Program-made: the position numbers and the translations under genes
In this document: positions 49,240-50,038 of the stretch, one piece after another
How the letters are laid out: every line of letters begins with the position of its first letter
How positions within the stretch are numbered: the stretch's first letter is position 1
Notes under the pieces: model-generated
Seen by the model: only the letters and a program-made list of their open reading frames with translations
What the model was told of the DNA's origin: nothing
The model's database searches: none
Assembly (NCBI RefSeq): GCF_045037415.1
Contig: NZ_CP173438.1
From: Escherichia coli
GTDB lineage: Bacteria; Pseudomonadota; Gammaproteobacteria; Enterobacterales; Enterobacteriaceae
DNA length: 64,000 nt
Strand: one strand, 5' to 3'

Positions 49240-49245
49240 CTGATA

Positions 49246-49275
49246 TCGCTCCCCGAAGTTGGGGAGCGTTTTTTT
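49246..49275 (+). terminator. Intrinsic terminator after the TctA-like gene, overlapping the udp stop codon
   Basis: Hairpin cgctccccgaagttggggagcg followed by TTTTTTT. Confidence 0.6.
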
Positions 49276-50038
49276 ATTTCAGCAGACGACGCGCCGCTTC
49301 CACCACGATTTTCACCGCATGGCTTTCGGTTTGTTTCATCGTCTCAGCATTCGGGATCTCTTGCTGGGTGCGGTTAACGATAACCCCCGCTACCATACCG
49401 GCACGCAGGCCCTGACTTGCACACATGGTCAGCAGGGTTGCAGATTCCATTTCATAGTTCATTACGCCCATCGCCTGCCACTCTTCCATAGAACCTTTAA
49501 AGTGACGAACTACGCGACCAGAGTAAGTATCGTAACGTTCCTGACCTGGGTAGAAGGTATCAGAAGAAGCTGTCACGCCAACGTGAGTCGTCGCGCCAAT
49601 GGATTTCGCAGCTTCAACCAGCGCAGTCGTACATTCGAAATCAGCGACAGCCGGGAATTCCAGCGGTGCGAAGTGCAGGCTCGCGCCATCCAGACGAACA
49701 GACGCCGTGGTAACCAGGACATCACCCACATTAATATGCGGCTGAATAGCGCCCGTTGTACCGATACGCAGGAAGGTGCGAATGCCCAGCTGTGCCAGCT
49801 CTTCAACAGCAATAGAGGTAGACGGGCCGCCGATACCGGTAGAGCAGACGATAACAGGTTTACCATCCAGCTCTGCACGCCAGGTGGTGAATTCGCGGTG
49901 AGATGCCAGCTTAACCGGCTTATCCATCAGCGCGGCGATCTTTTCCACACGATCCGGGTCGCCAGGGACGATGGCAAGCGTAGCCCCTTGTAAATCGTTT
50001 TTAGTGAGGCCGAGATGAAAAACATCAGACTTGGACAT
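49274..50038 (-). CDS. udp: Uridine phosphorylase
   Basis: About 254 aa from [31 protein letters not shown]; recognisable E. coli Udp. Confidence 0.94.

What the first reader, a model, noticed from the sequence alone, without database searches (positions are those of the whole stretch)
49241..49276. Right junction of locus 1: terminator hairpin whose T-run overlaps the udp stop codon
The convergent TctA-like gene and udp are separated by only about 34 bp, containing one strong hairpin (cgctccccgaagttggggagcg) whose T-tract runs into the udp stop codon. This tight packing marks the probable insertion or deletion boundary. The hairpin terminates the island transcript; it has no T-run in the udp direction, so udp may read into the island antisense.
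Basis: seen in the sequence. Interest (0 to 1): 0.25.

Follow-up and report, generated by a model that had tools for sequence, protein, structure and literature searches.

The report
Operon terminator at a variable-islet edge
The hairpin is an ordinary one-way transcription stop signal at the end of a 5.6-kb optional sugar-acid uptake operon in E. coli; it sits exactly at the operon's right border and overlaps the stop codon of the neighbouring udp gene, which has lost its own terminator in strains carrying the operon.

Summary
tctA ends at 49239. A perfect 8-bp GC-rich stem (49247-54 / 49261-68) is followed by T7 (49269-75). The udp stop codon on the minus strand is 49276-74, so 34 nt separate the two stops. 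No comparable hairpin plus T-run appeared in 30 shuffles of the window.

The breakpoint claim also holds. Of 5,426 complete E. coli genomes, 1,456 carry the islet and 3,969 have an empty site. Homology between the two forms resumes at 49276. The islet form (43680-49275, 5,596 bp) replaces 43 bp that hold udp's own terminator in K-12. That terminator is invariant in the Salmonella and Citrobacter loci examined.

The islet is not a recent insertion. The same operon, with the same left breakpoint, lies between rmuC and udp in E. whittamii, Buttiauxella and two Klebsiella species, and next to udp in Phytobacter. It has no integrase, no terminal repeats and no GC shift.

In islet strains the K-12 stop TAA reads AAA. 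Udp therefore gains Lys254 and stops on a TAA built partly from the T-run.

Sequence scores support termination in the tctA direction only. Read-through from udp is plausible but untested.

This is an ordinary feature and the islet is already published. A side observation: in 18 genomes a BIME element splits or duplicates the hairpin.

The parts
47749..49239 (+). tctA (tripartite tricarboxylate transporter permease, 496 aa), last gene of the islet operon; stop TAA at 49237-49239
   Evidence: ORF list; Pfam PF01970, E 9.6e-152; RefSeq annotation
49247..49268 (+). Terminator hairpin: arms CGCTCCCC (49247-54) and GGGGAGCG (49261-68), loop GAAGTT (49255-60)
   Evidence: dG -16.5 kcal/mol. One copy per genome in 1,456 E. 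coli genomes, so not a dispersed repeat
49269..49275 (+). T7 run, the U-tract of the terminator in the tctA direction. Its last two bases are the complement of the AA of the udp stop codon. T6 in some strains
49274..49276 (-). udp stop codon TAA. It straddles the breakpoint: its T (49276) lies in sequence shared with empty-site genomes, and its AA (49275-74) in islet-specific sequence
49277..49279 (-). Extra Lys254 codon AAA of udp. K-12, Salmonella, Citrobacter, Klebsiella spallanzanii and Phytobacter have the stop TAA here; K. indica has TAG at this position
   Evidence: CDS is 765 nt in islet strains and 762 nt in empty-site strains
49274..50038 (-). udp (uridine phosphorylase, 254 aa in this allele), convergent with tctA
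43680..49275 (+). Islet-specific segment (5,596 bp): IclR-family regulator, DgoK-like kinase, DgoA-like aldolase, TctC, TctB, TctA. Replaced by 43 bp in K-12-type genomes
43670..43679 (.). Last bases shared with empty-site genomes at the left junction (ctacgcaaaa). On the udp strand this is the distal end of the T-tract of the ancestral udp terminator
48975..49130 (-). C-rich, G-poor stretch on the RNA that udp read-through would produce (C/G 1.5-2.0, at or above the 90th percentile of the window). Candidate Rho loading region; inference only
   Evidence: GC skew

Best explanation
The hairpin plus T7 is the Rho-independent terminator of the iclR-dgoK-dgoA-tctCBA operon. This operon is a 5.6-kb optional locus between rmuC and udp. 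When RNA polymerase leaves tctA it transcribes the GC-rich stem and then the U7 tract; the hairpin forms and the weak rU:dA hybrid releases the transcript near 49272-49276.

The element lies at the right edge of the variable segment. The islet allele replaces the 43 bp that in K-12-type genomes, and in the Salmonella and Citrobacter loci examined, hold udp's own terminator (GGCCGACGCGTTCGGCC followed by a T-rich tail). In islet strains udp therefore has no dedicated terminator. The codon that is the K-12 stop reads AAA, so Udp gains Lys254, and the new TAA borrows two bases from the T-run.

In the udp direction the same hairpin is preceded by A7 and followed by AUAUCAGUUAUU. It is therefore at best a weak terminator or a pause site. 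udp transcripts probably pass it at some frequency and run antisense into tctA. They would then be stopped by Rho on untranslated C-rich RNA, or by collision with tct polymerases, and trimmed back to the hairpin, which would then act as the 3' stabiliser of udp mRNA.

Shown here: the anatomy, the breakpoints, the allele frequencies, the cross-genus conservation and the directional asymmetry of the sequence signals. Inferred: actual termination efficiencies, and every step after read-through.
For: Anatomy and strength of the hairpin.
Directional asymmetry: the Carafa-type score is +54 in the tctA direction and -18 in the udp direction, against +13 for K-12's own udp terminator. The stringent scan finds the site on the + strand only, whereas the hairpin at 10105-10128 in the same window is found on both strands.
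Breakpoints and two-state polymorphism: 1,456 islet plus 3,969 empty-site genomes account for 5,425 of 5,426. Sequences at the junctions.
The ancestral udp terminator is invariant in the E. coli, Salmonella and Citrobacter loci aligned.
The same operon lies between rmuC and udp, with the same left breakpoint, in E. whittamii, Buttiauxella and two Klebsiella species. Phytobacter has the operon next to udp and ysgA, but no rmuC was found in that locus.
In each genus there is a GC-rich hairpin between the two stop codons, although the hairpin sequences are unrelated. In Klebsiella spallanzanii a different hairpin plus T6 also abuts the udp stop.
The hairpin core is unchanged in the eight islet-bearing E. 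coli loci read; their differences lie in the loop, the outermost stem pair, the T-run length and the spacer. The junction 40-mer occurs in 1,456 genomes, in 1,440 of them over at least 80% of its length.
Rut-like C-rich stretch downstream on the antisense RNA.
Against: No transcript 3'-end data exist here for any islet-bearing strain, so termination in either direction is predicted, not observed.
In Buttiauxella, Phytobacter and K. indica the corresponding hairpin has no T-run on either strand. A U-tract is therefore not a conserved requirement at this junction, and the conserved function may be pausing or RNA stabilisation rather than classical termination.
The d-score formula was recalled from memory and used with modern energy parameters, so its absolute values are approximate.
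The preprint by Wang et al. (10.1101/2022.10.23.513370) reports that hairpins between convergent genes can give bidirectional termination without resembling intrinsic terminators. That would weaken the read-through part of this explanation.
Confidence: 0.8

Rival explanations
1. The hairpin is a genuinely bidirectional terminator that ends both the tct operon transcript and the udp transcript efficiently. It would do so either intrinsically, with the AU-rich tail AUAUCAGUUAUU being sufficient, or by the collision and pausing mechanism described for convergent gene pairs. There would then be little antisense read-through.
For: The hairpin lies between convergent genes and folds equally well on both strands (-17.2 and -17.4 kcal/mol; z = -5.0 on the udp strand). 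Half of the first 12 tail bases in the udp direction are U. A hairpin between tctA and udp is conserved across genera even where neither strand has a T-run, which suggests a function that does not depend on a U-tract. Wang et al. report collision-driven bidirectional termination in which the hairpin acts as a pause element.
Against: There is no U-run in the udp direction and no A-tract upstream in the tctA direction. PMC12207403 describes the A-tract as an essential feature of bidirectional intrinsic terminators. The score is negative and the stringent scan detects only the + strand. The collision mechanism needs both genes to be transcribed, but the tct operon has its own IclR-family regulator and may be off much of the time. 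A ribosome at the udp stop codon, 5 nt from the stem, would cover the 5' arm and delay folding (inference).
Confidence: 0.25
2. The hairpin mainly acts after transcription. It would be a 3' stem-loop that blocks 3'-to-5' exonucleases and defines the mature ends of both mRNAs, while real termination occurs elsewhere by Rho.
For: A stable stem sits within 5-7 nt of both stop codons. The orthologous hairpins that lack T-runs in other genera fit a stabiliser role. In a minority of strains the junction holds REP/BIME elements, and a 2026 preprint argues that REPs act as combined terminators and stabilisers.
Against: In E. coli the uninterrupted T7 (T6 in some strains) directly after a perfect GC stem is the canonical intrinsic-terminator signature. 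K. spallanzanii independently has a hairpin plus T6 at the same place. The two roles are not exclusive.
Confidence: 0.1
3. The palindrome is a functionless by-product of the rearrangement that created or removed the islet, or of recombination between two hairpin copies that once flanked a BIME element.
For: It lies exactly at the breakpoint. Eighteen E. coli genomes and E. whittamii have a hairpin, BIME, hairpin arrangement from which the compact form could arise by deletion.
Against: The stem core is unchanged in the islet-bearing E. coli loci read, and the junction 40-mer is present in 1,456 genomes with the T-run kept. Unrelated hairpins occupy the same position in four other genera. No such structure occurred in 30 shuffles. 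A recombinational origin would not exclude function.
Confidence: 0.03

Closest known systems
Canonical Rho-independent (intrinsic) terminators of E. coli, for example the Spot 42 terminator at window 11378-11401
   Same: A GC-rich perfect stem of 8-9 bp, a short loop, an uninterrupted T7 directly after the stem, and a position a few nucleotides after the last stop codon of an operon.
   Different: Nothing essential differs. The unusual detail is that the T-run doubles as part of the stop codon of the convergent gene.
The udp terminator of K-12-type E. coli, Salmonella and Citrobacter (AAAGGCCGACGCGTTCGGCCTTT followed by a T-rich tail)
   Same: It occupies the same genomic slot, immediately 3' of udp, and is a GC hairpin with a T-rich tail.
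   Different: It faces the other way and terminates udp, has an unrelated sequence, and lies 19 nt rather than 5 nt from the stop. It is absent from the islet allele, which replaces it.
Bidirectional intrinsic terminators (A-tract, hairpin, U-tract), for example window 10105-10128 next to CsrC
   Same: A single hairpin shared by two opposing transcription units.
   Different: The 49247 hairpin has a T-run on one strand only. The 10105 hairpin has T-runs on both strands. The A-tract described as essential is missing.
Collision-type bidirectional terminators between convergent gene pairs (Ju et al. 2019, as summarised in Wang et al., bioRxiv 10.1101/2022.10.23.513370)
   Same: A convergent gene pair with a hairpin in a very short spacer. 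In that model the hairpin acts as a pause site that positions head-on collisions.
   Different: The tctA side is a fully canonical intrinsic terminator here. Whether udp termination depends on convergent transcription is unknown.
The roughly 5-kb islet between udp and rmuC of APEC O1, noted by the tkt1-island paper (PMC3349570)
   Same: It is the same locus: six ORFs between udp and rmuC, next to the tkt1 island between metE and ysgA, which is also in this window.
   Different: That paper only records the islet's existence and states that its ORFs have unknown functions. It does not describe the junctions, the terminator swap or the cross-genus conservation.

Membership tests
Rho-independent (intrinsic) terminator | GC-rich stem-loop of about 5-14 bp with a short loop | tested here: met
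   8 perfect pairs (7 G-C, 1 A-U) plus a closing G-U; dG -16.5 kcal/mol
Rho-independent (intrinsic) terminator | U-rich tract immediately 3' of the stem | tested here: met
   T7 at 49269-75 on the + strand, T6 in some strains. Not met on the - strand, where the tail is AUAUCAGUUAUU
Rho-independent (intrinsic) terminator | Lies at the 3' end of a transcription unit | tested here: met
   7 nt after the stop of tctA, the last of six co-oriented genes
Rho-independent (intrinsic) terminator | Transcripts actually end at the U-tract without Rho | not testable with these tools
   No 3'-end or RNA-seq data for an islet strain were found
Bidirectional intrinsic terminator | Located between convergent genes | tested here: met
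   tctA (+) and udp (-), with 34 nt between the stops
Bidirectional intrinsic terminator | A-tract upstream and U-tract downstream, so that both strands read hairpin then U-run | tested here: not met
   Upstream of the stem on the + strand is UAACUGAUAU. The stringent scan finds the site on + only, while 10105-10128 is found on both strands. The udp-direction score is -18. Feature as stated in PMC12207403
Collision-driven bidirectional terminator (convergent pairs) | Termination in both directions that requires convergent transcription and a hairpin pause element, and is independent of Rho | not testable with these tools
   Only the geometry (convergent pair plus hairpin) can be checked, and it is met. 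The functional criteria need experiments
Integrase-type genomic island boundary (att site) | Flanking direct repeats or a tRNA target, an integrase or transposase gene, and deviant base composition | tested here: not met
   No terminal direct or inverted repeats. GC is 0.50-0.55 inside and outside the islet. The six genes are a regulator, two enzymes and a transporter. No tRNA lies nearby
Boundary of a presence/absence (replacement) polymorphism | Homology with genomes lacking the segment starts or stops at this point | tested here: met
   Empty-site genomes align only from window 49276 onward. 3,969 genomes are empty-site and 1,456 carry the islet. The left breakpoint is 43679/80
REP/BIME dispersed palindrome | Many copies per genome with the REP consensus | tested here: not met
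   The 40-mer occurs once per genome and only in islet-bearing genomes. A true BIME is inserted next to the hairpin in 18 genomes

The most novel reading that the evidence does not exclude
The compact hairpin may be one state of a recombination switch driven by a mobile BIME-type element. In 18 E. coli genomes and in E. whittamii, a dispersed element of about 177 bp lies directly after the hairpin. It consists of two REPs around an AT-rich core, and a copy about 87% identical lies near yiiF. In strain MFDS1022581 it is flanked by two identical 19-nt copies of the hairpin, which looks like a duplication of the target hairpin. Strain N96 has a compact junction on the same haplotype. If this reading is right, terminator hairpins would be insertion targets that are duplicated when a BIME arrives and fused again when it is lost. 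The hairpin in this window could then be such a fusion, with the 5' arm and loop of copy 1 joined to the 3' end and T-run of copy 2. That would give a rare before-and-after series for REP/BIME mobility.
Probability: 0.15. Interest if true: 0.45.

Novelty: new member of a known kind. Interest (0 to 1): 0.15.

Why it matters
For annotation, this fixes both borders of a known ExPEC-associated islet to the base. It also shows that the locus is a replacement allele, old across Enterobacteriaceae, rather than a recent insertion.

For gene expression, it predicts a strain-dependent difference in how udp transcripts end. About three quarters of E. coli genomes have a dedicated udp terminator. About one quarter have a borrowed hairpin facing the wrong way, a one-residue longer Udp, and possible antisense transcription into tctA. 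These are small effects and nothing here challenges current understanding.

Tried and rejected
(1) Recent integrative island. Rejected: there are no terminal repeats, no GC shift, no mobility genes and no nearby tRNA. The operon is syntenic between rmuC and udp, with comparable or greater divergence than the flanking genes, in E. whittamii, Buttiauxella and two Klebsiella species.

(2) Simple deletion in K-12. Rejected: the empty site holds 43 bp with a functional-looking udp terminator that is invariant in the Salmonella and Citrobacter loci aligned. Neither allele is a plain indel of the other.

(3) The hairpin is a REP or other dispersed repeat. Rejected: it occurs once per genome.

(4) A known RNA family. 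Rfam at gathering thresholds has no hit near 49,000-49,500.

(5) Compensatory base changes within Escherichia. None were found. The stem core is unchanged, and variation is confined to the loop, the outermost stem pair, the T-run length and the spacer. Support for structural selection comes instead from unrelated hairpins at the same site in other genera.

(6) Literature on transcript ends of udp or the islet in B2 strains. Nothing usable was found, and one search failed on syntax.

(7) Which allele is ancestral, and whether the BIME form precedes the compact form. Neither could be resolved.

Full report
**Observation**

The sequence at 49200-49300 reads ...CGTCAA TAA CTGATAT CGCTCCCC GAAGTT GGGGAGCG TTTTTTT A TTT CAGCAG... 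The ORF list and Pfam identify the following:
- A TctA-family permease on the + strand, ending with TAA at 49237-39.
- A PNP_UDP_1 phosphorylase on the - strand, whose stop codon is the reverse complement of 49274-76. RefSeq annotates this gene as udp in the 100%-identical strain SK1144.
- Thirty-four nucleotides between the two stops. These contain one perfect 8-bp stem (49247-54 / 49261-68), with a possible ninth G-U pair, and a T7 run (49269-75).
- The last two T's of the run are the complement of the AA of the udp TAA.

The structure is well beyond chance:
- It is by far the best candidate in a 10-kb terminator scan.
- The local fold has z = -3.5 on the + strand and -5.0 on the - strand against shuffles.
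- A stringent pattern (perfect 8-bp stem, at least 5 GC pairs, T6) occurs at only five loci in the whole 64-kb window. It occurred in none of 30 dinucleotide-preserving shuffles.

**Where it sits**

The window is E. coli. The six co-oriented genes at 43800-49239 encode an IclR-family regulator, a DgoK-like kinase, a DgoA-like aldolase, TctC, TctB and TctA. They lie between rmuC (-) and udp (-).

Among 5,426 complete E. coli genomes:
- 1,456 match across the tctA-udp junction.
- All the others match only from window position 49276 onward.
- Conversely, the contiguous K-12 rmuC-udp region is found in 3,969 genomes.
- Together these account for 5,425 genomes, so this is a clean two-state polymorphism.

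Direct comparison with a K-12 derivative shows that the left breakpoint follows ...ctacgcaaaa (43679/43680) and the right breakpoint lies at 49275/49276. The islet allele has 5,596 bp (43680-49275). The empty-site allele has 43 bp in the same place: atacaaaaggccgaacgcgtcggccttcagacaggagaagaga.

On the udp strand those 43 bp read as a hairpin, GGCCGACGCGTTCGGCC, followed by TTTTGTATTTTT. This is a udp-oriented intrinsic terminator. The element is invariant in the Salmonella enterica and Citrobacter loci examined, both of which also have the empty site with a spacer of about 140 bp.

The boundary claim is therefore verified to the base. However, the event is a replacement: neither allele is a simple insertion or deletion of the other.

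**A consequence for udp**

In K-12, Salmonella, Citrobacter, Klebsiella spallanzanii and Phytobacter, udp ends ...CTG CTG TAA. K. indica has TAG at that position. In every islet-bearing Escherichia sequence I read, that codon is AAA. The protein is then 254 aa rather than 253 aa (765-nt against 762-nt CDS).

The stop that is actually used, TAA at 49276-74, has its first base in shared sequence and its last two bases in the terminator T-run. Klebsiella spallanzanii has tandem stops, TAA TAA AAAA, followed by a hairpin. This suggests that the E. coli state arose from a tandem-stop ancestor by a T-to-A change in the first stop.

**Age of the locus**

A scan of one genome per species with TctA as the query, followed by tblastn of all neighbouring proteins, gave these results:
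- The same six-gene operon lies between rmuC and udp-ysgA in Escherichia whittamii, Buttiauxella warmboldiae, Klebsiella spallanzanii and K. indica.
- In Phytobacter massiliensis the operon lies next to udp and ysgA, but no rmuC was found in that locus.
- The islet proteins are as divergent as the flanking core proteins, or more so. Against K. spallanzanii, for example, TctA is 86%, IclR 65% and DgoK 49% identical, compared with RmuC 82%, YsgA 82% and Udp 97%. Against E. whittamii all proteins are 92-100% identical.
- The left breakpoint is at the same position in the four genera aligned.
- The islet has no terminal repeats, no compositional shift and no mobility genes.

The locus is thus an old enterobacterial operon that is present or absent as an allele. 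It is not a recent island. [quoted passage not shown] 6 ORFs with unknown functions" in APEC O1 (PMC3349570).

The distance between the tctA and udp stop codons is 34, 35, 40, 68 and 66 nt in E. coli, Buttiauxella, Phytobacter, K. spallanzanii and K. indica. Each spacer has at least one strong GC-rich hairpin (total fold energies -17 to -34 kcal/mol), and the hairpin sequences are unrelated. The tight convergent packing is therefore a conserved architecture of this gene pair, not a scar of the rearrangement.

**How it most likely works**

In the tctA direction the element has every sequence feature of an intrinsic terminator:
- The hairpin has dG of -16.5 kcal/mol.
- U7 follows the stem directly.
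- It starts 7 nt after the last stop codon of the operon.
- A d'Aubenton-Carafa-type score gives about +54. I recalled the formula from memory, so the value is approximate.

In the udp direction the same stem is preceded by A7 and followed by AUAUCAGUUAUU:
- The score is about -18, whereas the K-12 udp terminator scores about +13.
- The stringent scan finds the site on the + strand only. The hairpin at 10105-10128 in the same window, next to CsrC, is found on both strands.
- PMC12207403 describes an upstream A-tract as an essential feature of bidirectional intrinsic terminators. That feature is missing here.

I conclude that the hairpin is a one-way terminator for the tct operon (confidence about 0.8). 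Islet strains have exchanged udp's dedicated terminator for a hairpin that faces the wrong way.

The following steps are inferred, not shown:
- Some udp transcription passes the hairpin and runs antisense into tctA.
- A ribosome at the udp stop, only 5 nt from the stem, would cover the 5' arm and further disfavour hairpin-dependent termination.
- The untranslated antisense RNA has a C-rich, G-poor stretch 117-270 nt downstream (window about 49130-48975), with C/G of 1.5-2.0, at or above the 90th percentile of the window. This would suit Rho loading.
- Exonucleolytic trimming back to the hairpin would give udp mRNA a stable 3' end.

**Rival explanations**

The main rival is efficient bidirectional termination. 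Wang, Watters, Ju and Liu report that hairpins between convergent E. coli genes, which do not resemble intrinsic terminators, act as pause sites. These sites position head-on RNA polymerase collisions that terminate both transcripts (bioRxiv 10.1101/2022.10.23.513370).

The hairpins without T-runs at this junction in Buttiauxella, Phytobacter and K. indica fit such a role. However, the mechanism needs the tct operon to be transcribed, and the operon has its own IclR-family regulator, so it may often be silent. I give this rival about 0.25.

A purely post-transcriptional stabiliser role (about 0.1) and a functionless scar (about 0.03) are less likely, given the canonical T-run and the conservation.

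**Side observation**

The junction has a second form:
- In 18 of the 5,426 genomes and in E. whittamii, a segment of about 177 bp follows the hairpin directly.
- The segment consists of two REP palindromes around an AT-rich core. It belongs to a dispersed family with a median of six places per genome, and a copy next to yiiF is about 87% identical over the whole unit.
- In the E. coli cases a second hairpin plus T7 lies between this element and udp. In strain MFDS1022581 the two hairpin copies are identical over 19 nt, GCTCCCCGACGTTGGGGAG.
- Strain N96 carries the same flanking haplotype but a compact single hairpin.

The compact and expanded forms evidently interconvert through the repeated hairpin. 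I could not determine whether the hairpin in this window represents the state before insertion or a fusion after deletion. This is the most novel reading left open, and I consider it modest in both probability and importance.

**Comparison with known systems and verdict**

The element works like, and meets the sequence criteria of, a Rho-independent terminator. It fails the defining symmetry of a bidirectional intrinsic terminator. It is not a REP, not an att site and not a known Rfam family.

The islet it borders is already in the literature, with its function unknown. The new details concern this locus only:
- the base-exact borders;
- the terminator swap;
- the stop-codon shift that adds Lys254 to Udp;
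- the conservation of the operon at this site across genera;
- the BIME variant.

Noticed in passing
L097:95-336, L087:488-700, L003:8492-8680; corresponds to window 49247-49276: In 18 E. coli genomes and in E. whittamii, a dispersed BIME-type element of about 177 bp lies directly after the tctA hairpin. It has two REPs around an AT-rich core. In strain MFDS1022581 it is flanked by two identical 19-nt hairpin copies. Strain N96 (L098) is compact on the same haplotype. This looks like target-hairpin duplication followed by loss, but the direction is unresolved.
   Followed up: partly
window 10105-10128: A perfect GC-rich hairpin with T-runs on both strands, next to the CsrC sRNA gene (Rfam hit 10088-10341, minus strand). 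It is a textbook bidirectional terminator and a useful contrast to the one-way hairpin at 49247.
   Followed up: partly
window 43704-43737: Inverted repeat TCCCATAATATG ... TATATTGTGGGA in the promoter region upstream of the IclR-family gene. Its TCCCA/TGGGA ends are conserved in the Buttiauxella and Klebsiella versions of the locus. It is a candidate operator for the islet's regulator.
   Followed up: no
window 43800-49239: The islet operon combines a DgoK-like kinase and a DgoA-like aldolase with a TctCBA transporter but has no dehydratase. This suggests direct uptake and catabolism of a 2-keto-3-deoxy sugar acid. The literature describes its ORFs as having unknown functions (PMC3349570).
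   Followed up: no
window 51366 to at least 57700 (L002:10467-16801): A second variable segment lies between ysgA and metE, encoding a cysteine hydrolase, DUF2877, FdrA, DUF1116, carbamate kinase, a cytosine permease and more. It corresponds to the B2/ExPEC-associated tkt1 genomic island described in PMC3349570.
   Followed up: partly
window 49269-49275: The T-run length varies among islet strains: T7 here and in APEC O1, T6 in E. coli C, N32, Z0117EC0005 and EC42405. The udp stop codon is unaffected, because it uses the last two T's whatever the run length.
   Followed up: yes
window 40687-40938 (-), 3160-3267 (-), 1202-1270 (-), 7763-7834 (-), 11370-11488 (-), 20570-25587 (-): Rfam gathering-threshold hits elsewhere in the window are the Erse sRNA (overlapping the 3' part of the ubiJ-region ORF), ES222, STnc370, naRNA4 (a REP-derived RNA), Spot 42, and a complete rRNA operon with a tRNA.
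   Followed up: no
L087 (E. coli strain 2017-02-2CC), udp region: This strain's udp DNA is only 92.8% identical to K-12, yet its TctA protein is identical to that of ordinary E. coli islet strains. Either the strain belongs to a divergent Escherichia lineage or this region was imported by recombination.
   Followed up: no
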